Part shown: positions 1,068 to 12,169 of the stretch, in pieces
Position numbering within the stretch: position 1 is the stretch's first letter
Layout of the letters: every line of letters starts with the position of its first letter
Source of the DNA: Lentisphaeria bacterium
Lineage (GTDB): Bacteria > Verrucomicrobiota > Lentisphaeria > Oligosphaerales > CAITYL01
DNA: 64,000 bases
NCBI GenBank assembly: GCA_041651315.1
Contig: JBAZJM010000003.1
Coordinates: 1 to 64,000, forward strand
Reading direction: 5' to 3'
Notes under the pieces: generated by a model
What the model saw: only the letters and a program-made list of their open reading frames with translations
Told to the model about the DNA's origin: nothing
Databases searched by the model: none
Made by a program: the position numbers and the translations under genes

Positions 1068-1092
1068 TAACCATCATAGACATAAAAATTTG

Positions 1093-1510: not shown

Positions 1511-1827
1511 ACCAACATGACTGAAGCGATCTCGAGTGTCTTAGTTAGTTCTTCAAGACACCTGGGCCAGAATTCATACTTCGGCATTTCAATTTCCCAA
1601 TCACGATCAGCTTCAAACATCGGCTCAATGAAAATGAATCCGTTTTCATTGAATCGACCGATATCATATCTGAATGAAGGCCAAAGTTTTGATTCATCGA
1701 AAAGAGTACATGGTGTTCCATTACTGATATGACAAAGATCTATCCTGATGAATCCATTTATCATTCTTGCTTCAACAAATAATGACTCTTCAAGATCAAA
1801 CTTGAAAAATGGATCATTATCTGTCAT
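1507..1827 (-). CDS. paralog family member 2
   Basis: 106 aa. N-terminal FFKFDLEE and C-terminal EMPKYEFWPRCLEELTKTLEIASVMLV motifs shared with its paralogs. Confidence 0.6.
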   Translation of the reverse strand: MTDNDPFFKFDLEESLFVEARMINGFIRIDLCHISNGTPCTLFDESKLWPSFRYDIGRFNENGFIFIEPMFEADRDWEIEMPKYEFWPRCLEELTKTLEIASVMLV

Positions 1828-2219: not shown

Positions 2220-2258
2220 AAGTTACCTTGGATACTAAGAAAATCCGAAGATTTTCAG

Positions 2259-2723: not shown

Positions 2724-2731
2724 TTAATATT

Positions 2732-3076
2732 CTACGAAAAGAGAACTGAAGCGACTTCGTATGCCTTAGTCATTTGCTTAAGGCATTCTGGCCAACTTTC
2801 ATACTTTCTCATCACATTTTCCCAATTATGAGTATCATCGGGGGAGAAGTCGACGCCCTTTTCGTCTAATTTACCGATAAGTACTCCCTTTGAGGGAGGT
2901 GAAATATTAGGGAAAGCATAAACACGCGCTCCGTCGTGTCTTGTCATCTTAACCGTGATTTCAACATTATTCTCAAGGAAAAAGCTGAAAAACTGATAAC
3001 CACCATCAGGCAATTCGAGAAATTTCACATCCCAAGTGCAATTGAAGAAAGCTGATATATTGGGATCAGTTGCCAT
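2732..3076 (-). CDS. paralog family member 5
   Basis: 114 aa. C-terminus RKYESWPECLKQMTKAYEVASVLFS. Ends with TAG. Confidence 0.6.
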   Translation of the reverse strand: MATDPNISAFFNCTWDVKFLELPDGGYQFFSFFLENNVEITVKMTRHDGARVYAFPNISPPSKGVLIGKLDEKGVDFSPDDTHNWENVMRKYESWPECLKQMTKAYEVASVLFS

Positions 3077-3093
3077 GATATTATTTTACAATT

Positions 3094-3168
3094 GGCGTCT
3101 CCAGTGGGACTTGAACCCGACATTTACGGCTTGAAAGGCCGTAATCCTAGCCTTTAGAAGATGGAGAC
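3094..3168 (-). tRNA. tRNA-Glu (anticodon TTC), CCA encoded
   Basis: Acceptor GTCTCCA/TGGAGAC, anticodon stem ACGGC/GCCGT with loop CTTTCAA, T-loop TTCAAGT, 3' GCCA. Confidence 0.7.
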
Positions 3169-3605
3169 AGAGTTTGTTTTCTCAGAGATTCGAGTGTTAC
3201 TCGATAAGGGCAAGTCATTTCATGTTCATCAGGATTCGATGAACTAAATTTTTGACAGTGTTTACATACTGAGTATCTACGTGTTCGTACTTTCTTTGAA
3301 GGTTTGTAAGTAGGAGACCCGTCTATTCCATCAGCATGTTCAATGACTGACGTATAAACGGAAAACATTATTTCACCATCAGTTTCAATAACTGACGATT
3401 TAAAAACTCTGTGACCTTCCATCTCAATTTCTGAGAGAAAGTCAGATAATGCTATAACTATCGGGTTTTCTTCATTATCGAATTTATCGTGATCGACAAT
3501 TGCTTGCACATTAGTAGTGCATTTCGAACCCCAAAGATCAATAACGCCGGCTCTCACTTCTTCACAAATTACATTTAGCGTCCCTGGCGGGATTCGAACC
3601 CGCAT
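3147..3605 (-). CDS. hypothetical Cys-rich protein (both ends overlap tRNA genes, true start and stop uncertain)
   Basis: 152-aa ORF containing CKHCQKF...CPY. Its N-terminus overlaps the tRNA at 3579-3652 and its C-terminus overlaps tRNA-Glu. Confidence 0.3.
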   Translation of the reverse strand: MRVRIPPGTLNVICEEVRAGVIDLWGSKCTTNVQAIVDHDKFDNEENPIVIALSDFLSEIEMEGHRVFKSSVIETDGEIMFSVYTSVIEHADGIDGSPTYKPSKKVRTRRYSVCKHCQKFSSSNPDEHEMTCPYRVTLESLRKQTLSPSSKG

Positions 3606-3652
3606 TTCTGGTTAGAGAGACCAGCTGCCTAAACCGTTAGCAAGACAAGGAC
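3579..3652 (-). tRNA. tRNA, probably Glu (anticodon CTC; unusual U37)
   Basis: Acceptor GTCCTTG/CAGGGAC, anticodon stem CTGGT/ACCAG with loop CTCTCTA, T-arm GCGGG-TTCGAAT-CCCGC. Confidence 0.55.
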
Positions 3653-3658
3653 ATTTAG

Positions 3659-3728
3659 TACCCCTGACAGGAATCGAACCTGTGCACACGAGTTTAGAAG
3701 GCTCAGTGCCGTATCCATCGGCAGGGGC
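3659..3728 (-). tRNA. tRNA-Arg (anticodon TCT) with C31.A39 mismatch
   Basis: Acceptor GCCCCTG/CAGGGGT, anticodon stem TGAGC/ACTCG with loop CTTCTAA, T-arm ACAGG-TTCGATT-CCTGT. Confidence 0.55.
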
Positions 3729-3732
3729 AAAA

Positions 3733-3806
3733 TTGGAGGTGAGTGAGGGAATCGAACCCTCCCATAACGGTTTTGCAGACCGTTCCGCTCGCCAGAGCAA
3801 CGCACC
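3733..3806 (-). tRNA. tRNA-Cys (anticodon GCA), CCA encoded
   Basis: Anticodon stem ACGGT/ACCGT perfect, loop CTGCAAA, T-arm GAGGG-TTCGATT-CCCTC, 3' ACTCACC-T-CCA. Confidence 0.7.
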
Positions 3807-3809
3807 ATT

Positions 3810-3881
3810 AGAGAGGCTCACGAGATTCGAACTCGTACCAACGCCATGGCAAGGCGTCATCCTACCATTGGACTAGAACCT
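3810..3881 (-). tRNA. tRNA-Gly (anticodon GCC)
   Basis: Acceptor GAGGTTC/GAGCCTC, D GTCC/GGAT, anticodon stem ACGCC/GGCGT with loop TTGCCAT, T-arm ACGAG-TTCGAAT-CTCGT. Confidence 0.75.
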
Positions 3882-3927
3882 CAAATTGATTATCGAACTA
3901 TCATTTGATTTATCTGTATGATAAATC

Positions 3928-4557
3928 ATGGACAATAATTCGAAAAAACAGAAAGCAAGAAAACTAAGAATCGATGAACGTCTTTCTTTAGAAGAAATAT
4001 CAAAAAGAGTTGGGATTGCTAAATCAACTGCATCTCTTTGGTTAAGGGACATGCCTTTAACCAAAGAAGAAAGAAGCATTAGAAATAAAATTGGTGCTCA
4101 ATTCAGTAGAATTCATCTCAGAAAAGACAGAGGAGAAGAATCAAAATATTACTTAATGGCTTCTAAAACAAGGGCAGCGTCGAATCATAAAGGACGTATA
4201 TCAGAATCAGCAGTAGCATTTCGATTATCTTTGATCGGACTTACTTTTTATATGTCCCCATTTGATGGGGATCATGTCGATTTTATTGTTGAAAATTCGA
4301 ATGGAAAACATTTGAAAATTCAAGTTCGATCTACTAGACGTACACATGATACCATGCCAATGGTTAGAATCAAACGTTATTGTGGAAATCGTAAAATGCG
4401 AAAATATGAACGTAATGACTGTGATATATTGGTTGCATACGATTTAAAAACAGACGTGGCTTATGTTTTCACATATAATGAATTAAATAATCGTACGAGT
4501 CATATAACGATGTGTCCAGAAGCTGCAGAAAAATGGGATAAACTAGAAATCGCATGA
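3928..4557 (+). CDS. HTH DNA-binding protein, possible nuclease-like C-terminal domain
   Basis: 209 aa. The N-terminus (LSLEEISKRVGIAKSTASLWLRD) is a helix-turn-helix. The C-terminal D..E.K-like segment (DHVDFIVENSNGKHLKIQ) suggests a PD-(D/E)xK-type fold, which is inference only. Confidence 0.4.
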   Translation: MDNNSKKQKARKLRIDERLSLEEISKRVGIAKSTASLWLRDMPLTKEERSIRNKIGAQFSRIHLRKDRGEESKYYLMASKTRAASNHKGRISESAVAFRLSLIGLTFYMSPFDGDHVDFIVENSNGKHLKIQVRSTRRTHDTMPMVRIKRYCGNRKMRKYERNDCDILVAYDLKTDVAYVFTYNELNNRTSHITMCPEAAEKWDKLEIA

Positions 4558-4853
4558 AGTGTAAAGTGAACCCGATGGGTCGTAAACACCGGGAATTCAG
4601 AAAATCAATCAAATCCCGACTCCTTCAGTTAGGGCTGAAGGAAAATGAATTTGGAGAATTGATTAGGAGAGTCTCTAAAGCAGAAGCTCGAAGAGTTCTG
4701 CTAGGACGACGCTTAGTTTATTTCGCAAGAGTCAGAGAATGTACTGACCTTGCAAGTAAACGAGCTACAGAAGACATTCAGGCGATAGAAGACGCTATCG
4801 CAATTGATAACTGGGAAAAGATGTTTATCGTTAGTGACGTTATGCTAACGTAA
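4554..4853 (+). CDS. hypothetical protein
   Basis: 99-aa ORF; its ATG overlaps the upstream stop (ATGA). Confidence 0.35.
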   Translation: MKCKVNPMGRKHREFRKSIKSRLLQLGLKENEFGELIRRVSKAEARRVLLGRRLVYFARVRECTDLASKRATEDIQAIEDAIAIDNWEKMFIVSDVMLT

Positions 4854-5283
4854 CCTGAACCAACTCGATTTTGATCTCTTCAGCAGCCGCAAAAATCTTG
4901 TCATCTCGATAGAATTCAAGATATTTGATTGATTTAATACCCGCGTTCACGAGAAGCTTGAAACAGATCCAACAAGGGCTAGCTGTTGTGTAACAAATTC
5001 CACCCTCGAGGCGAATTCCGTTTCTAGCAGCCTGGGCGATCGCATTTTGTTCTGCATGAACAGTGCGAACGCAATGTCCATCTTCCATCATATGTCCTAC
5101 GTCATCACAATGAGGGAGACCTGCTGCTGATCCGTTATATCCCGTAGCAATAATAAGACGTTGAGGGTTAACTATGACAGCACCAATGTGTTTTCTGTCG
5201 CACGTCGCACGAGTTGCTACATCTTGTGCGATCTTCATGAAATAAGAATCCCAGGGAACTCGGCTCATGCTTGGACTATACAA
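4840..5283 (-). CDS. dCMP deaminase (deoxycytidylate deaminase)
   Basis: Zinc-binding cytidine/dCMP deaminase motifs HAEQNAI and PCWICFKLL in a 147-aa protein. Confidence 0.85.
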   Translation of the reverse strand: MYSPSMSRVPWDSYFMKIAQDVATRATCDRKHIGAVIVNPQRLIIATGYNGSAAGLPHCDDVGHMMEDGHCVRTVHAEQNAIAQAARNGIRLEGGICYTTASPCWICFKLLVNAGIKSIKYLEFYRDDKIFAAAEEIKIELVQVTLA

Positions 5284-5303
5284 GAAAAGAGATCTCTTTG
5301 AAA

Positions 5304-5379
5304 TGGAGCGAATGGCGAGATTCGAACTCGCATCTTAAGGCTTGGAAGGCCTACACCCTGCCGTTGGACCACATTCGCA
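5304..5379 (-). tRNA. tRNA-Gly (anticodon TCC), CCA encoded
   Basis: Acceptor GCGAATG/CATTCGC, anticodon loop CTTCCAA, T-arm GCGAG-TTCGAAT-CTCGC, 3' T-CCA. Confidence 0.7.
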
Positions 5380-5455
5380 TGGAGCCGGTTACGAGAGTTG
5401 AACTCGTCTCTGTTCCTTACCAAGGAACTGCTATCACCACGATTGCTAAACCGGC
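5380..5455 (-). tRNA. tRNA-Thr (anticodon GGT), CCA encoded
   Basis: Acceptor GCCGGTT/AACCGGC, anticodon stem GTTCC/GGAAC with loop TTGGTAA, T-loop TTCAACT. Confidence 0.75.
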
Positions 5456-5460
5456 ATTAG

Positions 5461-5533
5461 TGGAGCCTACAGGAGTCGAACCTGCCACCTCTTGTCTGCC
5501 AGACAAGCGCTCTTCCAGATGAGCTAAGACCCC
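5461..5533 (-). tRNA. tRNA-Ala (anticodon GGC)
   Basis: D GCTC/GAGC, anticodon stem CTTGT/ACAAG with loop CTGGCAG, T-arm GCAGG-TTCGACT-CCTGT. Confidence 0.65.
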
Positions 5534-5540
5534 GTAAATT

Positions 5541-5612
5541 TGGTGGAGCTGCCGGGTATCGAACCCGGGCTTCGAGCTTGCAGGGCTCGAATCTAGTCCT
5601 CTAGACAACCCC
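5541..5612 (-). tRNA. tRNA, probably Ala (anticodon TGC; loop CCTGCAA with C33)
   Basis: Acceptor GGGGTTG/CAGCTCC with GU pairs, anticodon stem CGAGC/GCTCG, T-arm CCCGG-TTCGATA-CCCGG-type, 3' A-CCA. Confidence 0.5.
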
Positions 5613-5616
5613 GTAG

Positions 5617-5685
5617 TGGAGATAGAGAGAGTTGAACTCTCGACGAACCGCTGCGAACGGATCACCTAAACCCGTTAGTATCCCC
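5617..5685 (-). tRNA. tRNA, possibly Ala (anticodon CGC); short, with mismatches
   Basis: Acceptor GGGGATA/TATCTCC, T-arm GAGAG-TTCAACT-CTCTC, anticodon loop TTCGCAG in a stem with one T.T mismatch. Confidence 0.4.
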
Positions 5686-5692
5686 GTTATCT

Positions 5693-5763
5693 TGGCAGAT
5701 CCAGAAGGAATCGAACCCTCATCGTGAGTTTTGGAGGCTCACTTGCCGCCATGGCATGGACCT
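5693..5763 (-). tRNA. tRNA-Trp (anticodon CCA) with C31.A39 mismatch and reduced D-arm, CCA encoded
   Basis: Acceptor AGGTCCA/TGGATCT, anticodon stem TGAGC/ACTCA with loop CTCCAAA, T-arm GAGGG-TTCGATT-CCTTC, 3' G-CCA. D region is only TGCC-ATGGC-GGCA. Confidence 0.55.
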
Positions 5764-5764
5764 A

Positions 5765-6064
5765 TTAATCTGTCAGTATTTCACGAACTAAGCACTCGTG
5801 ACAAAGTGAAGCGGCATCCCAACCATGCCTATGATTGAAACAATGTTCTAATTTAAACGCATTTCGAGCTAGCATGCGTGCGAATTCATTACCATTCACG
5901 TCTTTTAATTTTGAAAATGGTAGCATCCATATTCGATTAGGGTCTGTCTTCGACTCAAACCCGAAATGACTTGTCAACTTCCAGTTGATGGATTCTACTT
6001 GCCCGCCATCAGTAATATGCTGACGGATGTTTTCGATAAATTCTTCTTCAGAATTGAAGATCAT
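5765..6064 (-). CDS. hypothetical protein (His/Cys cluster CFNHRHGW..CHEC)
   Basis: 99-aa ORF immediately downstream of tRNA-Trp. Confidence 0.4.
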   Translation of the reverse strand: MIFNSEEEFIENIRQHITDGGQVESINWKLTSHFGFESKTDPNRIWMLPFSKLKDVNGNEFARMLARNAFKLEHCFNHRHGWDAASLCHECLVREILTD

Positions 6065-6065
6065 A

Positions 6066-6281
6066 TTAGCTTGACATCACTTGATGAACTAGTACTTCAT
6101 CAATAGTCATTTTTGTTAATGATACTTGTCCTTTGAGTCCTAACAGATGTTGAGTTGATACTTGCATAATCAATTCAACGTCATGAGCATGTTTCCCACA
6201 TTTGACAAGAATATTTTTCTTGTCATTGTTTAGAAATCCACAGACTGCTTCTGCTTCACAGTTCTGTTCATCACATTTCAT
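6066..6281 (-). CDS. hypothetical Cys-rich small protein (start placed at an internal Met to avoid tRNA-His)
   Basis: The ORF at 6066-6347 overlaps tRNA-His. An internal start (MKCDEQNCEAEAVCG...) at about 6281 clears it. Confidence 0.3.
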   Translation of the reverse strand: MKCDEQNCEAEAVCGFLNNDKKNILVKCGKHAHDVELIMQVSTQHLLGLKGQVSLTKMTIDEVLVHQVMSS

Positions 6282-6302
6282 AACGAAAAGTACATGAGAA
6301 AT

Positions 6303-6378
6303 TGGGGTGGCATACGGGATTCGAACCCGTGTATAGCTGGACCACAACCAGCCCCCTTTACCACTTGGGTAATGCCAC
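6303..6378 (-). tRNA. tRNA-His (anticodon GTG), CCA encoded
   Basis: Acceptor GTGGCAT/ATGCCAC perfect, anticodon stem GCTGG/CCAGC with loop TTGTGGT, T-arm ACGGG-TTCGAAT-CCCGT, 3' C-CCA. Confidence 0.8.
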
Positions 6379-6380
6379 AG

Positions 6381-6453
6381 TCGGAGTGGTCGGAATCGAA
6401 CCGACGATATCTAGTACCCAAAACTAGTCCCTTAGCCACTGGGGTACACTCCG
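6381..6453 (-). tRNA. tRNA-Pro (anticodon TGG)
   Basis: Acceptor CGGAGTG/CACTCCG, anticodon stem CTAGT/ACTAG with loop TTTGGGT, T-arm GTCGG-TTCGATT-CCGAC. Confidence 0.8.
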
Positions 6454-6621
6454 GAAAATTTGCGCGCATCTGAGTGACAAAACTGGAGGTTTTGATTGAT
6501 TTACTGTCAATTGCCTTTACCATTTGGCTAATCCCCCATTTTTAGCACCGAAGTGCTGGTGGGGGATGAAGGATTCGAACCTTCAAAATTTGCTTGTTAG
6601 GTCTGTCTGTTAGATGCGCGC
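6454..6621 (-). ncRNA. circularly permuted tRNA-like gene A (Tyr-like, anticodon GTA; 3' half at 6557-6584 lies upstream of 5' half at 6476-6537)
   Basis: In the minus-strand RNA the order is leader GCGCGCATCT...CTAACAAGCAAATTTT, then T-arm GAAGG-TTCGAAT-CCTTC, then ATCCCCC-A-CCA. A UUCG hairpin GCACTTCGGTGC and TAAAAAT follow, then GGGGGAT-TA-D arm (GCC..GGC, GG in loop), anticodon arm ATTGA-CAGTAAA-TCAAT and a 6-bp variable-arm hairpin CAAAAC-CTCCA-GTTTTG. The trailer ends AGATGCGCGC, which is the exact reverse complement of the leader start. Confidence 0.55.
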
Positions 6622-6710
6622 GGTGCTACTGAGTGGATTCGAACCACCATATCTACAAGAGATAACAGATTCTGAGTCTGTCGCGTCTACCAAGGTTGCG
6701 CCACAGTAGC
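6622..6710 (-). tRNA. tRNA-Leu (anticodon CAG), class II
   Basis: Acceptor GCTACTG/CAGTAGC, anticodon stem ACAGA/TCTGT with loop CTCAGAA, long variable-arm hairpin ATCT/AGAT, T-arm GGTGG-TTCGAAT-CCACT. Confidence 0.8.
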
Positions 6711-6748
6711 ATATTGTAAATTCAAGAAACTGAATCGTAAGAAAAGCT

Positions 6749-7384
6749 ATGATTTACACCATCGGACATTCTACGATGTCCAGTGAAGATTTTGTGAAAA
6801 TTGCTGCTCCGTTGAAAACTGTTATCGATATTCGATCTCACCCAACAAGTAGATGGGAACAATTTAGAAAAGAAGAAATGCAACGTTGGTTGCAAAATGC
6901 CGGGATTGGTTATGAATGGTGGCCGTCTCTCGGTGGTTGGTCAGAAAAGCATGCTGACCTTATCCCTAAATTCGAACCATTGCTTGTTGATGTCGCTGCT
7001 TATGTTCGCGGAAAATTTCCGAAGCAAAGAATAGCTAAAGGAACGAAATGTCCGGAACCAAGTGAAAATATCCAAGAGTCACTGCCTGGGATTCGACCTG
7101 CTTGGACGAATCAAGGTCTTTACGATTATTCTTGGTTCATGTCTCTCCCTGAGTTCATTCAAGGAGCGGAAGAGTTAATTCAACGCGGGGAATCAGAAGA
7201 CATTGGAATTATGTGCTGTGAGGTTCTTTGGTGGAAATGTCATCGTTCCATGGTTGCCGATTACGTTGTTTTTCGGAAGCATGAAGTTTTCCATCTTCAA
7301 CCAAAGTTATCCTCTCACACTAAAGCAATCGGTAATCGATTAGATCGATACGATCCAAGAATCATTGAAGCATGGAATAAATAG
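6749..7384 (+). CDS. DUF488-like protein
   Basis: 211 aa. The N-terminal MIYTIGHS... start is typical of the DUF488 family. Ends with TAG abutting tRNA-Leu. Confidence 0.5.
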   Translation: MIYTIGHSTMSSEDFVKIAAPLKTVIDIRSHPTSRWEQFRKEEMQRWLQNAGIGYEWWPSLGGWSEKHADLIPKFEPLLVDVAAYVRGKFPKQRIAKGTKCPEPSENIQESLPGIRPAWTNQGLYDYSWFMSLPEFIQGAEELIQRGESEDIGIMCCEVLWWKCHRSMVADYVVFRKHEVFHLQPKLSSHTKAIGNRLDRYDPRIIEAWNK

Positions 7385-7471
7385 TGGGGTTGACAGGAGT
7401 CGAACCTGCACGCTCTTGCGAGCACAAGCACCTCAAGCTTGCGTGTATACCGAAGGTTTCACCACAACCCC
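7385..7471 (-). tRNA. tRNA-Leu (anticodon GAG), class II
   Basis: Acceptor GGGGTTG/CAACCCC, anticodon stem CAAGC/GCTTG with loop TTGAGGT, variable-arm hairpin GCTC-GCAA-GAGC, T-arm GCAGG-TTCGACT-CCTGT. Confidence 0.8.
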
Positions 7472-7578
7472 ATTAGGCCCAGATTTTTACGTTCCAATCC
7501 AACGATTGGACACCCTCTTTTCGTTACCGAAAAGAATGAAGGCGGCTCTAGGTTGCCGAGCGGCTTGCGCCGCAAGTC

Positions 7579-7761
7579 TTATTTATTATCCTTACGACGG
7601 TAAAGAGTTTCTCCCGTCACAGGATCTGGGAAGGATTCCCATCCAAAAATAGATGCTACTCTGTCTCTATCTTCTTGTGTCGGTTCAGTTCTATGAACGG
7701 GTACAGAATCGAGACCTTTCTCGAATTCCATAACGTTCAATATTTCTGATAACCGCAACAT
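7579..7761 (-). CDS. hypothetical small protein
   Basis: 60-aa ORF with no detectable motifs. Confidence 0.25.
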   Translation of the reverse strand: MLRLSEILNVMEFEKGLDSVPVHRTEPTQEDRDRVASIFGWESFPDPVTGETLYRRKDNK

Positions 7762-7763
7762 CG

Positions 7764-7988
7764 TTAAGTCTGAAGTTGAGAGACGCGCCCTATTGGATGA
7801 TCGTCGATTTCTTTCCCGATTTCTTCATAGAAACAATCTTCGCAGATATGTTTTCCGTCGAGAACCGGAATCTTCCCAGTTATCATGCTCTGAAGTGGGA
7901 TTTTACACTTCACACAGGTCTCAGCATCCAAATATAACTCAGATACCCGTTCTGGGTTGTCTAGAAGTTCTCGGATAGTGAGAGCCAT
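7764..7988 (-). CDS. hypothetical zinc-ribbon-like protein (start moved to an internal Met to avoid the permuted tRNA-like element)
   Basis: The 7764-8099 ORF contains CVKCK...CEDC. Its first 37 codons overlap the 5' half of element B, so the internal start MALTIRELL at 7988 is preferred. Confidence 0.35.
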   Translation of the reverse strand: MALTIRELLDNPERVSELYLDAETCVKCKIPLQSMITGKIPVLDGKHICEDCFYEEIGKEIDDHPIGRVSQLQT

Positions 7989-8024
7989 GATAACCTCCAA
8001 ACTATACAAAAAATTTTGAAGCGC

Positions 8025-8160
8025 CCGAGGAAAAGATCTGGAGAACGTTTCTTGACGAATCCTTATTTCGTTGCATGTACCATCATGCGTATCCCCCATA
8101 GTGGAGGGGGATCCCGGATTCGAACCGGGCTGCTTGTTAGATCTTTGAATGGACGCTTCG
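8025..8160 (-). ncRNA. circularly permuted tRNA-like gene B (Leu-like class II, anticodon AAG; 3' half at 8102-8129 lies upstream of 5' half at 8041-8097)
   Basis: In the minus-strand RNA the order is leader ...AAAGATCTAACAAGCAG, then T-arm CCCGG-TTCGAAT-CCGGG, then ATCCCCC-T-CCA, then CTAT. Next come GGGGGAT-AC-D arm GCAT-GATGGTAC-ATGC, anticodon arm ACGAA-ATAAGGA-TTCGT, variable hairpin AGAA-ACG-TTCT and trailer CC-AGATCTTTT. Leader AAAGATCT is complementary to trailer AGATCTTT. Confidence 0.55.
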
Positions 8161-8161
8161 G

Positions 8162-8236
8162 TGGGTTGTCTCGGAATCGAACCGAGTTCTCGCCCTCTTC
8201 AGGGGCGCGCTGAATCACCAGACTAGCTCACAACCC
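8162..8236 (-). tRNA. tRNA-Phe (anticodon GAA)
   Basis: Acceptor GGGTTGT/ACAACCC, anticodon stem CGCCC/GGGCG with loop CTGAAGA, T-arm CTCGG-TTCGATT-CCGAG. Confidence 0.8.
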
Positions 8237-8249
8237 GTAATCTATTTAG

Positions 8250-8328
8250 TCCGCCATTGAGGAGTCGAACCCCTTCCACACGTTAATAGGACGCGCTCCA
8301 GCGACCGGCTGAATTAGGTAACGGCGGA
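8250..8328 (-). tRNA. tRNA, anticodon unresolved (possibly TAT in loop CCTATTA); over-long D region
   Basis: T-loop TTCGACT and acceptor TCCGCCG/TGGCGGA-type pairing. The D region carries about 6 extra nt and could not be folded unambiguously. Confidence 0.4.
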
Positions 8329-8358
8329 AATTCACAACTGTTTAGCGTATCGTTCTTC

Positions 8359-8919
8359 ATGGAATTTGAAGATCGAGCTATTGGAGTACCCGACGGGAAA
8401 GCTCCGATCTTTGGAGTCTTCCGGAGTTCTCGAGGAAAGCTGGCTGCTTTCGTAGTCAAAGAATTGAGAAAAATTCCCGAAGGTGTTATTTTAGCTTATA
8501 GAGAAAAAATCACCCCCGCTGAAGCAGCAAAACGTGCTGCCCAGATGCTGAATGACTACTTACCAATAAGTCATGTTACATCGGAAGAATATGAAAAAGA
8601 ACACGATCTAGTTGATGGCCGAGTAGCTACTTACCGTGATAGGGGATGGGAACATCAAGCCATCATCATTACGATAACTGGAAACAAAGCTCTTGCTTTA
8701 TTCTTTACCTCAAAAGCTAACTGGGCAAAGAAAACAAGACGAGCTTCGAATGATGAAATGGCAGCCGCCAACTTCATCTCAAGTCGAAGAACCTATGTTT
8801 CACTTGTCCTACGTCCATTAGACGGGTTTATTCCGACATTCAGGGTTGTTCCTGAGTTACTACTTTCGGAACTCAAAGAAGAGTTCAACGAAAAGGACGC
8901 CGAAATTTATATCCCGTAA
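8359..8919 (+). CDS. hypothetical protein
   Basis: 186-aa ORF with no recognisable motifs. Confidence 0.45.
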   Translation: MEFEDRAIGVPDGKAPIFGVFRSSRGKLAAFVVKELRKIPEGVILAYREKITPAEAAKRAAQMLNDYLPISHVTSEEYEKEHDLVDGRVATYRDRGWEHQAIIITITGNKALALFFTSKANWAKKTRRASNDEMAAANFISSRRTYVSLVLRPLDGFIPTFRVVPELLLSELKEEFNEKDAEIYIP

Positions 8920-8931
8920 TTCACAATCTTT

Positions 8932-9279
8932 ATGAGATCGGGAATTGAAATGTCAACAATACTTACATTTCTCGCACTTAGTATTGCTTGTGCGAGTATA
9001 TCTTTTACTATAACGAAATCAAAAATATTTAAAGGATTTAGGGAGTGGTTTCATAATTCAGATGATCCCACAGATTCAGATAGGAAAACTCGTGAATTCT
9101 TATTTGAATTCCTATCCTGCCCCTATTGCTTTAGTCATTGGATATCTTTTGCAATGACTATTATCTGGTTACCTAAAATAACGAATTGCGGCTTTCCGAT
9201 CCTAGACTACTTGGTATCAACCTTCGTAATCATCGGAATAGCCGCAATCGTAACCAGATTGATCGAGAAGACCGCTTGA
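8932..9279 (+). CDS. hypothetical membrane protein
   Basis: 115 aa with two or three hydrophobic helices (ILTFLALSIACASI; ISFAMTIIWLP; VSTFVIIGIAAIV). Confidence 0.45.
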   Translation: MRSGIEMSTILTFLALSIACASISFTITKSKIFKGFREWFHNSDDPTDSDRKTREFLFEFLSCPYCFSHWISFAMTIIWLPKITNCGFPILDYLVSTFVIIGIAAIVTRLIEKTA

Positions 9280-9285
9280 AATCGA

Positions 9286-9654
9286 TCAAGCGGCAGCTTC
9301 GGCAGCTTCTTGAAGAGCCGTTAGAGAAGCTTCAAGACCTGCTATTGCTTCAAGATCTTCCGCGGTCGTTGCTGGAAATTCACTCGGATTCTTAGCAACT
9401 AAATCTTGAAGAGCCTTGATAGCTGCTCGAGCTTTCTCAGCTTCAAAATTCAATTGATCCTGAACTCGTTCACTCATTTGAAATCGACGCTCAACGCGAG
9501 CTGGATCAATTTCAGCGATAATGGCTTTTAGAGCCTGAGCGACTAAAGTCTTGCTCGGCTTCTTCGAAGCATCAATCATCGAAGCAATTCTTCGAAGTTT
9601 GGCAGACAGTTCTTGCGGTTCCATGCCAGGAAGTTTTATTGAAAAGCTAGTCAT
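9286..9654 (-). CDS. hypothetical coiled-coil protein
   Basis: 122-aa Ala/Glu-rich ORF. Confidence 0.4.
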   Translation of the reverse strand: MTSFSIKLPGMEPQELSAKLRRIASMIDASKKPSKTLVAQALKAIIAEIDPARVERRFQMSERVQDQLNFEAEKARAAIKALQDLVAKNPSEFPATTAEDLEAIAGLEASLTALQEAAEAAA

Positions 9655-9994
9655 TCATAACATCTCGAAGGATATTATCCTTCGTTTCTAGCTTATCGAT
9701 ATCGACATTCTCAAATTTAAAGGGAGTTCCCTTTTCATCCGGATTCCAACCCGAAGCCAACATTTTACGAATTACTATCGCTATAGCTTCAGGTTTTACC
9801 GCGTGTCCGTCTAACCAAAAAAGAGTAGTCTGAGCGACTCTTCCAGGTTTCGGCTGATCAGCCTCAACGGTTAAAGTCGCTGAATTCGATTTCGGTCCTT
9901 CGTGATCCCAACGAAAAAAGGGTTTTTTCGCCGGCAAACTCCAACGAAAAGGTCGATTGTCAACGACAATTTTTCGAGCTCGAGGAATCGCCAT
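9647..9994 (-). CDS. hypothetical protein
   Basis: 115-aa ORF overlapping its neighbour by 8 nt. Confidence 0.4.
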   Translation of the reverse strand: MAIPRARKIVVDNRPFRWSLPAKKPFFRWDHEGPKSNSATLTVEADQPKPGRVAQTTLFWLDGHAVKPEAIAIVIRKMLASGWNPDEKGTPFKFENVDIDKLETKDNILRDVMND

Positions 9995-9997
9995 TAT

Positions 9998-11029
9998 TCA
10001 GTATACACAACCGCTACCACTAGTGGTATCCGGTTCCTCAACTTCTAAGATATCCTTAACAATTTCCTCATTAATAAGTTTCTTAGCCTCTTCAGGAGTC
10101 AATTTTCCAGCAGCAACTTTTTTGAGTACGTCATCCAATTCTCTTGGTTTCACGTCACTTTTCCTTTTTCGTTGCTGCCAACCATTATAAAATTTTCCAT
10201 CGTAATAGAGAACTGTTTTAGGGAATTGTTTCGGGTTTACTGGACAAGGTCTTCTCTTTGTTTGTAAACCGCACATTTGACGTACATTTACCGGCATATC
10301 ATCGATAATTATGTCGTGAATGCACCCGTAAGTGAACGGATCATCATTGAGCCCAAATTGATGATCGAAAATTTCAGCTAGATTTACGAAGTTTTCTTCT
10401 TCTAGCTTCAGTTCTGCAAATCTAATTTTATCGGCACCCACCGATTTGGCGAAAGCTACGTATTTCCTAATCGAATCATAATTATCGATGTGTCCAGAAA
10501 TGCAGTTACAATTCAATCTGACATTAACACCGATCAAATGAAAAGCATTAATGACTCCCCTCAAGTTATTGATTTTTACTCCGACAATTTCTTCATTCTT
10601 ATCTAAGTCAAAATCGTGGATTGAAATGTTGATTCCAGTCAATCCAGTCAAAACTGACGAAACATATCTTGGAGTTAGTAAACCACCGTTTGTCGTAACC
10701 CAGACATTTCGTCCACGTAGACTTAGATCAGTAATAATTTTATCTAAATCAGCATATAACGTTGGTTCTCCACCCAACAATATTATATTAGTTTTTCCTG
10801 ATTCAATGGCTTTATCAGCGATAACGTTCCATCCAGCTTTTTCTTTTGGATGATAACCGATATGCTCGATGCACCAAGAACAGCTCCCGTTGCAATTAGG
10901 AAGAAGATTAACTTCCAGCCAATCTTGAAAAGAACCGCCACAAAAATTACCAGGATGCGGCTCTGAATAAATCGTATTTAGATGATGCTTCCCGTCATTT
11001 ATATCCGTCACTTGCCCAACAATTACCAT
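9998..11029 (-). CDS. radical SAM domain protein
   Basis: CNGSCSWC (CX3CX2C) close to the N-terminus, the Gly-rich ILLGGEPTL motif, and extra Cys residues at the C-terminus. Confidence 0.7.
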   Translation of the reverse strand: MVIVGQVTDINDGKHHLNTIYSEPHPGNFCGGSFQDWLEVNLLPNCNGSCSWCIEHIGYHPKEKAGWNVIADKAIESGKTNIILLGGEPTLYADLDKIITDLSLRGRNVWVTTNGGLLTPRYVSSVLTGLTGINISIHDFDLDKNEEIVGVKINNLRGVINAFHLIGVNVRLNCNCISGHIDNYDSIRKYVAFAKSVGADKIRFAELKLEEENFVNLAEIFDHQFGLNDDPFTYGCIHDIIIDDMPVNVRQMCGLQTKRRPCPVNPKQFPKTVLYYDGKFYNGWQQRKRKSDVKPRELDDVLKKVAAGKLTPEEAKKLINEEIVKDILEVEEPDTTSGSGCVY

Positions 11030-11174
11030 TTAGAATGAAGGCCGTACCTCCACTAATGAGGCGTTTGGCTTTCTCCATCTTACAATGAGGGCATTCTTTA
11101 ATGGCGGGCTCGGAGATTTTTTGCTCAACCTCCCAAGTTTTCCCACAAGCTTCACAAACGTACTCGTAAGTCAT
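10996..11174 (-). CDS. FmdB-family zinc-ribbon small protein (59 aa)
   Basis: Hand translation gives MTYEYVCEACGKTWEVEQKISEPAIKECPHCKMEKAKRLISGGTAFILNG..., the classic FmdB CxxC...CPxC ribbon. The ORF overlaps the radical SAM start by about 34 nt and is absent from the ORF track because it is under 60 aa. Confidence 0.5.
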
Positions 11175-11193
11175 TGAATGAATTACCGTACAG

Positions 11194-11265
11194 AGCCAGC
11201 ACCGGGAGTTGAACCCGGCTATCCTCGTTACGAATGAGGCGCGTTCCCACGATTGCTATGCTGGC
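11194..11265 (-). tRNA. tRNA-Thr (anticodon CGT) with A31.C39 mismatch
   Basis: Acceptor GCCAGCA/TGCTGGC, anticodon stem CCTCA/CGAGG with loop TTCGTAA, T-arm CCGGG-TTCAACT-CCCGG. Confidence 0.6.
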
Positions 11266-11267
11266 AG

Positions 11268-11350
11268 TGGCTCCAGGGGCAGGATTCGAACCCGCGATGC
11301 TTTCGCGAACGGTTAACAGCCGTTTGCCTTACCACTAGGCTACCCTGGAA
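11268..11350 (-). tRNA. tRNA-Asn (anticodon GTT) with extended variable loop, CCA encoded
   Basis: Acceptor TCCAGGG/CCCTGGA, D GCCT/AGGC, anticodon stem AACGG/CCGTT with loop CTGTTAA, T-loop TTCGAAT, 3' G-CCA. Confidence 0.7.
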
Positions 11351-11390
11351 TATGTTTTCTACAGACAGTTTACTTACTGTCTAGTAGCAG

Positions 11391-11463
11391 CGCCCCGTAC
11401 GGGAATTGAACCCGTCTCGACCTAGCGTGACAAGCTAGCGTCCGCCCAGCGGACTTACAGGGC
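11391..11463 (-). tRNA. tRNA-Asp (anticodon GTC)
   Basis: Acceptor GCCCTGT/ACGGGGC, D GTCC/GGAC, anticodon stem CTAGC/GCTAG with loop TTGTCAC, T-arm ACGGG-TTCAATT-CCCGT. Confidence 0.8.
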
Positions 11464-11483
11464 AAAAAAGGAGGCGTACCTCC
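11464..11483 (-). terminator. Rho-independent terminator-like hairpin (minus strand)
   Basis: The minus-strand RNA GGAGGTACGCCTCC followed by UUUUUU sits immediately 5' of tRNA-Asp. Confidence 0.45.
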
Positions 11484-11485
11484 AA

Positions 11486-11677
11486 GTTTTGCCTTGTTAG
11501 TCCGCCTCCGCCTACTATCATTTGCAGGCAAGGTACCCTCACCGAGCTTATGCCTTGCCATAGCCAGCGCCGTTGCCGGATAAACAAGGTTCCACTTTTC
11601 CGTCGCTAAAGCGCCGGCTGGGTTGGTCCTTAAACCTGTTAGATTGTCAAGGAGCGAGGATCCGCTTGGATCTTGCT
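11486..11677 (-). other. approximately 190-nt non-coding, structured region between tRNA-Gln and tRNA-Asp (candidate ncRNA)
   Basis: No tRNA fold and no coding potential. It contains stem pairs such as GGCAAGG/CCTTGCC and both sub-motifs (ATCTAACAG ... CTAACAAGGCA) found in the permuted-tRNA leaders, here about 140 nt apart. Confidence 0.3.
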
Positions 11678-11752
11678 TGGTTCCAGAACTAGGATTCGAA
11701 CCTAGATAACGGGCTTCAGAGGCCCGCGTCTTAACCGTTGGACGATTCTGGA
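11678..11752 (-). tRNA. tRNA-Gln (anticodon CTG), CCA encoded
   Basis: Acceptor TCCAGAA/TTCTGGA, anticodon stem CGGGC/GCCCG with loop CTCTGAA, T-arm CTAGG-TTCGAAT-CCTAG, 3' A-CCA. Confidence 0.8.
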
Positions 11753-11865
11753 ATAACAACTGTCTTGAAACCAAAACTGCTTGTAAACAGTGGTCATTCG
11801 TGCTGCGACTTGTACTTAACTGAGCTTGCAAACTAACTACTAACTTTTCCTTTTACTGAATTTCT

Positions 11866-11939
11866 TGGTGGATCTGGAGAGAATCGAACTCTCGCCGACG
11901 GGTTAAGAGCCCGCTGCTCGACCATTGAGCTACAGATCC
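11866..11939 (-). tRNA. tRNA-Lys (anticodon CTT), CCA encoded
   Basis: Acceptor GGATCTG/CAGATCC, D GCTC/GAGC, anticodon stem GCGGG/CCCGT with loop CTCTTAA, T-arm GAGAG-TTCGATT-CTCTC, 3' A-CCA. Confidence 0.85.
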
Positions 11940-11943
11940 AAAA

Positions 11944-12018
11944 TGGTGGGTCGCCTCGGAATCGAACCGAGCTCTCTCAGGTTAAAAGCCTGCTGCATCA
12001 CCATGTTGCTAGCGACCC
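11944..12018 (-). tRNA. tRNA-Lys (anticodon TTT), CCA encoded
   Basis: Acceptor GGGTCGC/GCGACCC, anticodon loop CTTTTAA, T-arm CTCGG-TTCGATT-CCGAG, 3' A-CCA. Confidence 0.75.
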
Positions 12019-12086
12019 GAATCATCTGATTTGGGAATCGCTTCTGTTTTTGCTTCGAGTATCTCATGGTCGTAAACTTTCTTCGG

Positions 12087-12169
12087 GGTGAGGCGTCTAG
12101 GAGTCGAACCTAGTGTGCCGTAAGGCGACAGTTTTACAGACTGCTTCGCAAGCCGCTGCGAGACGCCCC
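12087..12169 (-). tRNA. tRNA-Tyr (anticodon GTA), class II
   Basis: Acceptor GGGGCGT/ACGCCTC, D CGCA/TGCG, anticodon stem GCAGT/ACTGT with loop CTGTAAA, variable hairpin GCC-TTAC-GGC, T-arm CTAGG-TTCGACT-CCTAG. Confidence 0.8.

What the first reader, a model, noticed from the sequence alone, without database searches (positions are those of the whole stretch)
8025..8160. Second permuted tRNA-like gene B with the same architecture and compensatory T-stem changes
Gene B is laid out like gene A. The leader (...AAAGATCTAACAAGCAG) is followed by T-arm CCCGG-TTCGAAT-CCGGG, ATCCCCC-T-CCA, a 4-nt spacer, GGGGGAT-AC, D-arm GCAT-GATGGTAC-ATGC, anticodon arm ACGAA-ATAAGGA-TTCGT (AAG, Leu-like), variable hairpin AGAA-ACG-TTCT and trailer CC-AGATCTTTT. 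Leader AAAGATCT pairs with trailer AGATCTTT. Compared with gene A, the T-stem differs by fully compensatory changes (GAAGG/CCTTC versus CCCGG/CCGGG). The acceptor (GGGGGAT/ATCCCCC) and the leader motif CTAACAAGCA are conserved. Two independent copies with covariation argue for a functional, selected arrangement rather than random debris. Both are class II tRNAs (Tyr and Leu) that share one acceptor stem, which is itself unusual.
Basis: seen in the sequence. Interest (0 to 1): 0.9.

Follow-up and report, generated by a model that had tools for sequence, protein, structure and literature searches.

The report
Circularly permuted tRNA-like gene in phage
A 157-kb bacteriophage carries two conserved tRNA genes whose 3' half is written before the 5' half. 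This arrangement was known only from algae and one archaeon, and here it most likely gives a tRNA made of two RNA pieces held together by base pairing.

Summary
On the minus strand at 8018-8159, gene B reads: leader helix, T-arm, ATCCCCC-T-CCA, CTAT, GGGGGAT, D-arm, a canonical anticodon arm (AAG), extra region, trailer helix. Gene A (6462-6621, anticodon GTA) has the same plan. ARAGORN and Rfam miss both in place. After computational un-permutation, ARAGORN calls them tRNA-Leu(AAG) and tRNA-Tyr(GTA), at stringencies equal to or above most of the window's 26 ordinary tRNAs.

Both genes recur in at least five related phages at 92-98 % nucleotide identity, like ordinary tRNAs and above flanking ORFs. 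Stem substitutions are compensatory (acceptor 5-68, D-stem 13-22) or wobble-compatible.

There is no bulge-helix-bulge motif, and no RNA ligase, splicing endonuclease or Ro60 in 74 kb. So algal-style circularisation and re-ligation is unsupported.

The architecture matches bacterial and phage permuted tRNA mimics (YrlA, two-piece tmRNA), which RNase P cuts. It also matches an engineered permuted tRNA that E. coli matures and acylates. A and B differ from these in keeping a complete anticodon arm.

Best reading: RNase P cleavage gives a two-piece, CCA-ended tRNA clamped by the 8-10-bp helix. Whether it decodes or acts as a decoy is unknown; it is redundant with canonical tRNAs. I class it as a new variant of a known kind.

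The parts
8154..8159 (-). Gene B, outer leader helix strand GAAGCG. It starts one base after the CC that ends the upstream tRNA-Phe.
   Evidence: Pairs with CGCTTC at 8018-8023 in the RNAfold minimum-energy structure. Invariant in all orthologues.
8139..8146 (-). Gene B, inner leader helix strand AAAGATCT (the clamp).
   Evidence: 8 bp with AGATCTTT at 8032-8039. A-to-G in relatives gives a G.U pair. The cognate leader/trailer duplex is -22.9 kcal/mol against about -9 to -10 for crossed A/B combinations.
8130..8138 (-). Gene B, single-stranded linker AACAAGCAG. It carries the motif (TC)TAACAAGCA shared with gene A.
   Evidence: Exact motif at 8131-8140 and 6591-6600. The motif is invariant while the bases next to the T-stem vary. 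It resembles the anticodon-loop and 3'-stem segment of ordinary tRNAs.
8113..8129 (-). Gene B, T-arm CCCGG-TTCGAAT-CCGGG.
   Evidence: C49-to-U and C50-to-U in relatives keep pairing as U.G.
8102..8112 (-). Gene B, acceptor 3' strand ATCCCCC, discriminator T and encoded CCA.
   Evidence: C68-to-U is compensated by G5-to-A in L035 and L036. CCA is invariant while the spacer varies.
8098..8101 (-). Gene B, intervening spacer CTAT. U lies at position -1 relative to the predicted RNase P site 5' of G8097.
   Evidence: CTAT/CTAC in orthologues. The same ...CUAU|GGGGGAU junction recurs in unrelated phage units L004, L007, L013, L014, L021 and L022.
8089..8097 (-). Gene B, acceptor 5' strand GGGGGAT plus positions 8-9 (AC).
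8073..8088 (-). Gene B, D-arm GCAT-GATGGTAC-ATGC.
   Evidence: U13-A22 becomes C13-G22, a compensatory change, in L036.
8055..8071 (-). Gene B, anticodon arm ACGAA-ATAAGGA-TTCGT. The anticodon AAG is at 8064-8062, with U33 and G37.
   Evidence: 5-bp stem and 7-nt loop, one base (A26, 8072) after the D-stem. Invariant in all four distinct orthologue variants. ARAGORN assigns Leu(AAG) after un-permutation.
8040..8054 (-). Gene B, extra (variable) region CA-AGAAACGTTCT-CC.
8018..8039 (-). Gene B, trailer: AGATCTTT (inner clamp strand), internal-loop bases and CGCTTC (outer strand).
   Evidence: Invariant in orthologues.
6462..6621 (-). Gene A, the paralogous permuted tRNA-Tyr(GTA)-like gene:
- leader GCGCGCATCT, 6621-6612
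- T-arm, 6584-6568
- ATCCCCC-A-CCA, 6567-6557
- 19-nt spacer with a GCAC-UUCG-GUGC hairpin, 6556-6538
- GGGGGAT, 6537-6531
- D-arm, 6528-6513
- anticodon arm, 6511-6495
- trailer AGATGCGCGC, 6471-6462
   Evidence: It sits exactly between the 3' end of tRNA-Leu(CAG) and the 5' end of tRNA-Pro.

Best explanation
Gene B, with its paralogue gene A, is a functional, circularly permuted tRNA-like gene in the tRNA array of a roughly 157-kb phage.

Proposed pathway:
1. It is transcribed with the neighbouring tRNAs.
2. The flanking leader and trailer pair (8 bp plus a 6-bp outer helix in B; 10 bp in A). The body then folds into T-arm, a 7-bp acceptor stem closed by the loop N73-CCA-spacer, D-arm and a normal anticodon arm.
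3. Host RNase P, which recognises the stacked T-arm and acceptor, cuts 5' of G1 inside that loop (U at -1). 3' trimming stops at the encoded CCA.
4. The product is not re-ligated. It is a two-piece tRNA. Piece 1 is leader strand, linker, T-arm, acceptor 3' strand and NCCA. Piece 2 is acceptor 5' strand, D-arm, anticodon arm, extra region and trailer strand. The acceptor stem, the leader-trailer clamp at the variable-region/T-stem junction and the D/T-loop contacts hold the pieces together.

Shown: the sequence architecture, its conservation, and structure-preserving substitutions.

Inferred: RNase P cleavage, the two-piece state, and any aminoacylation.

Open: what the RNA is for. It may be a spare decoder that is structurally unlike the host and normal phage tRNAs, for example one that tRNA-targeting defence nucleases recognise poorly. 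Or it may be a decoy for such factors. Ordinary codon supply is unlikely, because canonical tRNAs for Tyr and for all Leu codons are present.
For: Architecture and chance.

Selection:
- At least five related phages carry A and/or B in the same place.
- In B, 98.7 % of cells are paired. There are two double compensatory changes (acceptor 5-68, D-stem 13-22) and three wobble-compatible changes. Slid controls give 21-51 % paired and no compensatory changes.
- In A, changes fall only in loops, linkers and the spacer, or are G.U-compatible.
- A and B are 92-100 % identical across relatives, while flanking ORFs are mostly 76-88 %.

Leader-trailer helices: they differ in sequence between A and B, yet each pairs with its own partner at least 10 kcal/mol better than with the other.

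Two-piece maturation, from precedents:
- M. smegmatis YrlA, a permuted tRNA mimic with a 7-bp acceptor, is cut by RNase P and carries CCA in vivo (PMC4201824).
- An engineered permuted tRNA gene with a 10-bp clamp is matured and acylated in E. coli by host enzymes alone (PMC10794150).

Absence of re-ligation machinery: no BHB (read directly from the sequence), and no ligase, RtcB or splicing endonuclease found in 74 kb.

Other: CCA is invariant while the spacer varies. U lies at -1 in A and in most B variants.
Against: - There are no RNA data. Transcription, cleavage, end structure and charging are all untested.
- Only 4-5 distinct, closely related variants exist, so covariation statistics are modest (27 of 500 shuffles reach the observed value).
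- Linkers in the tRNA core are long and non-canonical: 9 nt (B) or 27 nt (A) before the T-stem.
- B has A8, G14 and U73. Gene A has A or G at position 33. These argue against efficient standard aminoacylation or decoding.
- Both genes are redundant with canonical tRNAs.
- Gene A's spacer holds an invariant, very stable UUCG hairpin. It would hinder 3' exonucleolytic trimming, and it could mean the acceptor loop is never opened.
- About 83 kb of the phage genome was not examined for a ligase or Ro60.
Confidence: 0.5

Rival explanations
1. A Y-RNA-like or decoy tRNA mimic that does not act in translation. The RNA, cut or uncut, serves as a scaffold or sponge. It might bind a Ro60-like or other RNA-binding protein, or titrate host tRNA-targeting defence nucleases or tRNA-modifying toxins. 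The anticodon arm would then be bait, not a decoder.
For: - The order of elements matches YrlA. Several metagenomic units with the identical acceptor and CCA score as YrlA below the gathering threshold (28-40 bits, E as low as 5e-6) or fold into the YrlA topology.
- A and B are redundant with canonical tRNAs.
- Non-canonical R33 in A, and A8, G14 and U73 in B.
- Gene A's spacer hairpin is invariant.
- Phage tRNAs are known counter-measures to tRNA-cleaving defences, including one that depletes tRNA-Tyr (PMC11555353, PMC10264068).
- The phage encodes an RRM protein and other RNA-acting enzymes.
Against: - No YrlA hit for A or B even at E <= 10.
- No Ro60/TROVE gene in 74 kb.
- YrlA has no anticodon arm. 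A and B keep a 5-bp/7-nt arm exactly one base after the D-stem, with class-II anticodons (Tyr, Leu) matching their long extra regions, and an invariant anticodon.
- In the retron study, rescue needed a translationally functional tRNA.
Confidence: 0.27
2. Algal/archaeal-type maturation. Leader and trailer are cut, and the ends are ligated into a circular intermediate. RNase P and 3' processing then open the acceptor loop and give an ordinary one-piece tRNA-Leu(AAG).
For: - The gene order is the same as in Cyanidioschyzon and Thermofilum permuted tRNA genes.
- Class II tRNAs are over-represented among those genes.
- The leader-trailer helix brings the ends together.
- The terminal stems are about 20 bp long with a central internal loop, which is RNase III-like in shape (inference).
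Against: - There is no bulge-helix-bulge motif. The helix is a continuous 8-10 bp, and the junction lies between the variable region and the T-stem, not at any known junction position (20/21, 37/38, 50/51, 59/60).
- Bacteria lack the splicing endonuclease (established knowledge).
- No ligase or endonuclease gene in 74 kb of the phage.
- There is no room for a group I intron in the 30-40-nt flanks, and no intron hit.
- All bacterial permuted RNAs known so far stay in two pieces.
Confidence: 0.13
3. A non-functional relic. It would be debris of tandemly duplicated tRNA genes that lost the outer halves. Alternatively, B's 5' half and A's 3' half would be the exons of one gene interrupted by about 1.5 kb.
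For: - Tandem duplication is the accepted origin of permuted RNA genes.
- Tandem normal tRNAs with this very acceptor exist (L026).
- A and B share an identical acceptor. The leader motif looks like a left-over anticodon-loop and stem segment.
Against: - A and B are conserved at tRNA-like levels across phages whose flanking genes have diverged to 76-88 %.
- Substitutions in stems are compensatory or wobble-compatible.
- Each leader pairs with its own trailer and not with the other's.
- The B-to-A interval varies in length and gene content among relatives, which is unlike an intron.
- No group I intron signal.
Confidence: 0.06

Closest known systems
Circularly permuted tRNA genes of Cyanidioschyzon merolae, prasinophyte green algae, the Bigelowiella nucleomorph and Thermofilum pendens (Soma et al. 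2007; review PMC3978253)
   Same: - The 3' half (T-arm, acceptor 3' strand) is encoded upstream of the 5' half and joined by a short intervening sequence.
- The un-permuted sequence is a full cloverleaf with an anticodon.
- Leader and trailer are complementary.
- Class II tRNAs (Tyr, Leu) are involved.
   Different: - Those occur only in eukaryotic nuclei and one archaeon.
- Their junctions are at 20/21, 37/38, 50/51 or 59/60 and carry a BHB motif cut by the splicing endonuclease.
- They are re-ligated through a circular intermediate, and in C. merolae CCA is not encoded in the genome.
- Here the host is a bacteriophage, the junction lies between the variable region and the T-stem, there is no BHB, CCA is encoded, and no ligase or endonuclease is evident.
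YrlA, bacterial and phage Y RNA-like tRNA mimics (Rfam RF02553; Chen et al. 2014, PMC4201824)
   Same: - Same order: terminal stem from the 5'/3' ends, T-arm, closed acceptor stem, then 'UA' + D-arm.
- Found in phages.
- M. smegmatis YrlA has a 7-bp acceptor, is cut by RNase P and ends in CCA as two pieces.
- Units that share B's exact acceptor, CCA and spacer in other phages score as weak YrlA hits.
   Different: - YrlA has no anticodon arm. The terminal, Ro60-binding stem takes its place, and a 4-nt loop precedes the T-arm.
- YrlA is encoded next to Ro60/Rsr.
- A and B have a full anticodon arm and extra region, their clamp is displaced to the variable-region position, no Ro60 gene is nearby, and they get no YrlA model hit.
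Permuted (two-piece) tmRNA genes of Alpha- and Betaproteobacteria and Cyanobacteria (Rfam RF01849-51, RF04321; PMC11915505)
   Same: - Bacterial precedent for T-arm, acceptor 3' strand and CCA, then an intervening segment, then the acceptor 5' strand.
- The transcript is cut by tRNA-processing enzymes into two pieces held by base pairing.
- There is a weak cyano_tmRNA match at gene A's junction (13.3 bits).
   Different: - tmRNA has the G3.U70 alanine identity pair, no D-stem, no anticodon arm, a tag reading frame and pseudoknots.
- A and B have G3-C70, a real D-arm, an anticodon arm and no room for a reading frame.
Engineered circularly permuted split tRNA-Pyl ('cis stRNA', Nature 2024, PMC10794150)
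   Same: - One gene: 3' half, loop, 5' half, with a clamp stem of about 10 bp.
- E. coli's own enzymes process it into a two-piece tRNA that is acylated in vivo.
- This is the same mechanism proposed here, and the clamp length is similar (8-10 bp).
   Different: - It is synthetic and split at the anticodon loop, so it cannot decode.
- The natural A and B are split at the variable-region/T-stem junction, which leaves the anticodon loop intact.

Membership tests
Circularly permuted tRNA genes (algal/archaeal type) | The 3' half is encoded upstream of the 5' half, joined by a short intervening sequence between the acceptor strands. | tested here: met
   The order is T-arm, ATCCCCC-T-CCA, CTAT, GGGGGAT, D-arm, anticodon arm.
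Circularly permuted tRNA genes (algal/archaeal type) | The un-permuted sequence forms a canonical cloverleaf with an anticodon. | tested here: met
   ARAGORN calls Leu(AAG) and Tyr(GTA) for nearly all junction choices. They pass at 105 % and 115 % stringency.
Circularly permuted tRNA genes (algal/archaeal type) | A bulge-helix-bulge (or relaxed hBH/HBh') motif is formed by leader and trailer at the junction. | tested here: not met
   The leader-trailer helix is a continuous 8 bp (B) or 10 bp (A). No 3-nt bulges flank a 4-bp helix (sequence; definition).
Circularly permuted tRNA genes (algal/archaeal type) | Maturation goes through a circular RNA intermediate, made by the splicing endonuclease and a ligase, to a one-piece tRNA. 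| not testable with these tools
   It needs RNA data. Indirectly, no ligase or endonuclease gene was found in 74 kb.
YrlA (Y RNA-like, RF02553) | A match to the family covariance model. | tested here: not met
   No YrlA hit on window 6300-8400 at E <= 10. Other phage units with the same acceptor reach 28-40 bits; the gathering score is 69.
YrlA (Y RNA-like, RF02553) | A permuted tRNA-like module: T-arm, closed acceptor stem, D-arm, with the 5'/3' ends paired. | tested here: met
   compared with the consensus.
YrlA (Y RNA-like, RF02553) | The terminal (Ro60-binding) stem replaces the anticodon arm, so there is no anticodon loop. | tested here: not met
   A and B have a closed 5-bp/7-nt anticodon arm one base after the D-stem.
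YrlA (Y RNA-like, RF02553) | Encoded next to a Ro60/Rsr (TROVE) gene. | tested here: not met
   No TROVE domain among the screened window ORFs or in the 9.6-kb extension. The rest of the 157-kb genome was not examined.
Permuted two-piece tmRNA | The G3.U70 alanine identity pair in the acceptor stem. | tested here: not met
   GGGGGAT/ATCCCCC gives G3-C70 in A, in B and in all orthologues.
Permuted two-piece tmRNA | A match to the tmRNA_permuted or clade models, and a tag reading frame. | tested here: not met
   Only 13.3 bits (E = 0.79) for A and nothing for B. The whole unit is about 140 nt and has no space for a tag.
Canonical bacterial elongator tRNA-Leu | Anticodon loop of 7 nt with U33 and a purine at position 37. 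| tested here: met
   The loop is AUAAGGA.
Canonical bacterial elongator tRNA-Leu | A73 discriminator and the U8-A14 core pair (identity and core features known from E. coli tRNA-Leu; from my own knowledge). | tested here: not met
   Discriminator U (8105), A8 (8090) and G14 (8084). All are invariant in orthologues, except position 9.
Canonical bacterial elongator tRNA-Leu | A long variable arm (stem-loop). | tested here: inconclusive
   About 15 extra nucleotides are present, but the proposed 4-bp stem is broken in 2 of the 4 distinct variants.

The most novel reading that the evidence does not exclude
A and B are natural split tRNAs. The phage makes two-piece, non-covalently assembled, aminoacylated tRNAs (Tyr and a Leu-anticodon species) from permuted genes, using only host RNase P and 3' trimming, and these decode on bacterial ribosomes. 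The nicked backbone, the unusual core and R33 would make them poor substrates for host tRNA-targeting defence nucleases. They would then be a back-up decoding set during abortive-infection responses. This would be the first natural two-piece elongator tRNA, and the first permuted tRNA gene outside eukaryotes and archaea.
Probability: 0.22. Interest if true: 0.92.

Novelty: new variant of a known kind. Interest (0 to 1): 0.74.

Why it matters
Permuted tRNA genes have been a curiosity of a few algae and one archaeon, and they depend on the BHB splicing machinery. In bacteria and phages, only tRNA mimics without an anticodon (tmRNA, YrlA) are known to be permuted.

A conserved phage gene that keeps the whole cloverleaf, anticodon included, in permuted order and without a BHB motif suggests a second, bacterial route to such genes. 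It would give a testable natural counterpart to the synthetic split tRNAs recently built for genetic-code engineering.

It also shows that standard tRNA finders miss these genes, so phage tRNA repertoires may be under-counted. Finally, it points to a broad, mostly undescribed set of permuted tRNA-like RNAs sitting in phage tRNA arrays.

Tried and rejected
- IMG/VR scans for the acceptor pattern, the leader motif and B's anticodon arm. They gave only L001 (YrlA-like after folding with wider flanks), ordinary tRNAs (L028-30) or chance coding hits (L051-54).
- The genome-contig scan gave a tandem normal tRNA-Val (L026) and one rumen-type unit (L027).
- DUF488 homologues in IMG/VR (L024, L025) have no tRNA array.
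- The neighbouring 186-aa ORF has no IMG/VR relatives.
- BLAST of the array and of un-permuted A and B against 50,697 phage genomes gave no full-length relatives. The 252 partial hits are ordinary tRNA-Lys 3' ends.
- Un-permuting all metagenomic units gave apparent tRNAs for L001, L010 and L022. I rejected these, because the strand after the D-arm pairs with the leader.
- The deaminase in the array (4840-5283) was considered as a TadA that might edit A34 of B. It is dCMP-deaminase/ComEB-like (135 bits against 24 for TadA).
- Promoter and terminator scans were uninformative.
- The idea that the phage's own tRNA-Val supplied the acceptor was rejected. Its Val tRNAs have other acceptors.
- A look-up of the protein at the far window end found nothing on record.
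Full report
**1. What is in the sequence.**
The window is part of a phage genome. It encodes a DNA polymerase, helicases, a primase-type zinc ribbon, sigma factors and an HNH endonuclease. It is identical to ENA contig ERZ27247363:k141_2920649, which is 157,286 bp long. ARAGORN finds 26 tRNAs, all on the minus strand, most of them in an array at 179-12169.

Read on the minus strand, 8159-8018 contains, in this order:
- outer leader strand GAAGCG
- inner leader strand AAAGATCT
- linker AACAAGCAG
- T-arm CCCGG-TTCGAAT-CCGGG
- ATCCCCC-T-CCA
- spacer CTAT
- GGGGGAT-AC
- D-arm GCAT-GATGGTAC-ATGC
- A26
- anticodon arm ACGAA-ATAAGGA-TTCGT
- CA-AGAAACGTTCT-CC
- AGATCTTT, then CGCTTC

Gene A at 6621-6462 has the same plan. 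Its T-arm is GAAGG/CCTTC, its discriminator is A, its spacer is 19 nt and holds a GCAC-UUCG-GUGC hairpin, its anticodon is GTA, and its leader-trailer helix is 10 bp, GCGCGCATCT/AGATGCGCGC. Gene A fills exactly the gap between the 3' end of tRNA-Leu(CAG) and the 5' end of tRNA-Pro. Gene B starts right after tRNA-Phe.

**2. Is it more than chance?**
Yes.
- The acceptor-CCA-spacer-acceptor pattern is expected 0.00 times in shuffles.
- A generic scanner for T-arm + 7-nt strand + N + CCA-like + spacer (up to 60 nt) + complementary 7-mer finds only A and B in 64 kb.
- RNAfold recovers the terminal helix, T-arm, closed acceptor and D-arm, with z = -4.1 for B and -6.5 for A.
- Neither ARAGORN nor Rfam's tRNA model sees the genes in place.
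- Joining the 5' half to the 3' half gives sequences that ARAGORN calls tRNA-Leu(AAG) and tRNA-Tyr(GTA) for almost all of 49 junction choices each.
- These calls persist at 105 % (B) and 115 % (A) of the default thresholds. That is as good as or better than most of the 26 normal tRNAs.

**3. Is it selected?**
Homologues of the two ORFs flanking B led to syntenic contigs from other metagenomes (L031-L050). These contain four distinct B variants and five complete distinct A variants, plus one partial A.

In gene B:
- Acceptor pair 5-68 changes G-C to A-U, and D-stem pair 13-22 changes U-A to C-G. Both are double compensatory changes.
- Three further stem changes give G.U or U.G.
- Sliding the 3' partners drops pairing to 21-51 % and gives no compensatory changes.
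- The shuffle control is only moderately significant (27 of 500), because the sequences are 97 % identical.

In gene A, changes fall in the linker before the T-stem, the T- and D-loops and the length of the spacer's A-run, or they are wobble-compatible. The 5' strand of the supposed variable hairpin drifts freely (AAAAC, AAATT, ACATT, AAAAATT), while its partner strand is invariant.

Across the same contigs, A and B are 92-100 % identical to the window. Ordinary tRNAs are 76-100 % identical, and flanking ORFs are mostly 76-88 %. These RNAs are therefore under purifying selection that preserves the fold. They are not debris.

**4. What they are related to.**
A scan of 241 million metagenome records for T-loop + ATCCCCC-N-CCA-N(1-30)-GGGGGAT returned 22 loci. 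IMG/VR returned one, and the species-representative genomes returned two.

One locus, L006, is the same phage. One, L026, is simply a tandem pair of normal tRNA-Val genes. The rest are diverse permuted tRNA-like units, nearly all inside phage tRNA arrays.

In these units the strand after the D-arm pairs with the leader just upstream of the T-stem, so there is no anticodon loop. Examples are L007 ACTAATC/GATTAGT, L022 TCTGTT/AACAGA, L010 CAACG/CGUUG, and the L002 group TGGGCT/AGCCCA, which covaries to TGGACT/AGTCCA.

Several score as YrlA below the gathering threshold (28-40 bits). Others match the tRNA-like domain of the permuted tmRNA models.

YrlA is a known permuted tRNA mimic of bacteria and phages. 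The M. smegmatis YrlA, with a 7-bp acceptor, is cut by RNase P and carries CCA in vivo. Permuted tmRNA genes are likewise cut by tRNA-processing enzymes into two base-paired pieces.

A and B share the order of elements with these families. With some members they also share the exact CCA-(N)CUAU-GGGGGAU junction. But they get no YrlA hit at E <= 10, they have G3-C70 instead of G3.U70, and they alone retain a closed 5-bp/7-nt anticodon arm placed one nucleotide after the D-stem.

Their anticodons (Tyr, Leu) belong to class II tRNAs, which fits their long extra regions. From my own memory of the E. coli tRNA-Tyr sequence, gene A's T-arm is identical to it, and its 3-bp D-stem and CNGUAAA anticodon loop resemble it. 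I did not check this with a tool.

**5. Comparison with true permuted tRNA genes.**
The 34 known genes come from six algae and Thermofilum. Their junctions are at 20/21, 37/38, 50/51 or 59/60. They carry a BHB motif, are re-ligated through a circular intermediate, and in C. merolae do not encode CCA.

A and B differ on each point:
- The junction lies between the variable region and the T-stem.
- The leader-trailer helix is continuous, with no BHB.
- CCA is encoded.
- No RNA ligase, RtcB, Pnkp, splicing endonuclease, Ro60 or CCA-adding enzyme was found among the window ORFs screened by Pfam, PHROGs or NCBIfam, or in the precomputed Pfam listing for the extra 9.6 kb.
- The 30-40-nt flanks leave no room for a group I intron, and Rfam finds none.

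Full-text searches found no report of permuted tRNA genes in bacteria or phages.

**6. Most likely mechanism.**
I combine the anatomy with three precedents: two-piece tmRNA, RNase P-cut M. smegmatis YrlA, and the engineered permuted tRNA-Pyl gene. That engineered transcript, with a 10-bp clamp, is matured and acylated in E. coli by host enzymes alone. On this basis, the best-supported model is:
1. RNase P cuts 5' of G1 in the acceptor loop.
2. 3' trimming stops at the encoded CCA.
3. The result is a two-piece tRNA, clamped by the leader-trailer helix.

The two clamps differ in sequence. Each prefers its own partner by at least 10 kcal/mol. This would also keep the two sets of halves, which share one acceptor, correctly paired. 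It also argues against B-5' plus A-3' being the exons of one interrupted gene.

Shown: architecture, conservation, and structure-preserving substitutions. Inferred: cleavage, the two-piece state, and charging.

**7. Function.**
The array, including the part beyond the window start, already holds canonical tRNA-Tyr(GTA) and tRNAs for all six Leu codons: CAG, GAG, TAG, TAA and CAA. Simple codon supply is therefore unlikely.

B has A8, G14 and U73. Gene A has A or G at the normally invariant U33.

Phage tRNAs are known to counter tRNA-cleaving defences, including a retron effector that depletes tRNA-Tyr. A structurally aberrant spare decoder, or a decoy, is a reasonable hypothesis, but it is untested.

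**8. Verdict.**
The genes are permuted, selected and tRNA-derived. However, the variable hairpin is not conserved, the ligation pathway is unsupported, and the shared acceptor recurs across other phage permuted tRNA-like units.
- It is a new variant of a known kind. It has the permuted tRNA-mimic architecture of YrlA and two-piece tmRNA, but with a complete anticodon-bearing cloverleaf, and it sits in a phage.

Noticed in passing
window 25933-28593 (-) and 28660-28734 (-): An 886-aa protein has Major Vault Protein repeat and shoulder domains (Vault_3, and MVP_shoulder at E = 8e-30). This is unusual for a phage. An amber-suppressor tRNA (anticodon CTA, which ARAGORN labels 'Pyl') lies about 70 bases away from it, beside its start.
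   Followed up: no
L002, L005, L011, L015-L017, L020, L023, L027 (e.g. L005 99-330): A group of large (about 200 nt) permuted tRNA-like RNAs occurs in rumen and gut phage contigs of up to 167 kb. They have a GGGGGAU acceptor with CCA, a true D-arm, and a P2-like helix that covaries (TGGGCT/AGCCCA to TGGACT/AGTCCA). They have G3-C70, and an indel rules out a conserved tag frame. No Rfam family reaches its gathering score.
   Followed up: partly
L008 1165-1229 and 1319-1458: Two different permuted tRNA-like units lie side by side in one phage tRNA array. One resembles the tmRNA tRNA-like domain (beta_tmRNA 34.6 bits). The other is YrlA-like (40.3 bits, E = 1e-7). Both are below the gathering scores.
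   Followed up: partly
window 250-337, 11268-11349; L057 12877-13113: Some ordinary tRNAs have the wrong class architecture. An 88-nt tRNA-Met(CAT) and an 82-nt tRNA-Asn(GTT) have long variable regions. The three tRNA-Leu genes (CAA, TAA, TAG) just beyond the window start are only 76 nt, with no long variable arm.
   Followed up: no
window 23393-23851, 50983-51564, 48541-49239, 21850-22341 (all -): The phage encodes a cluster of RNA-directed functions: an RRM-domain protein (E = 3e-24), a SpoU-family RNA 2'-O-methyltransferase, a CYTH (triphosphate tunnel) protein and a dual-specificity phosphatase. Any of these might act on the phage's tRNAs or on the permuted RNAs.
   Followed up: no
L031 8504-9882; L045-L049: In some relatives, a 232-aa HNH_3-like gene and a 203-aa ORF are inserted between tRNA-Phe and gene B. 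Gene B is still preceded by a remnant that looks like a tRNA 3' end (GGTTCGATTCCTCGACTGTCTACCG). This suggests a homing-endonuclease-type insertion that duplicated the tRNA end.
   Followed up: no
window 8359-8919 (+) homologue P0019: A close homologue of this ORF from a related 157-kb contig is deposited at NCBI as a protein of a 'Lentisphaeria bacterium' MAG (MFA5203028.1). Either the phage contig was binned into a bacterial MAG, or this hints at the host lineage.
   Followed up: no
window 6749-7384 (+): A DUF488 protein is encoded on the opposite strand between genes A and B. It keeps this position in the relatives whose contigs span the interval (L031, L039-L042, L045).
   Followed up: partly
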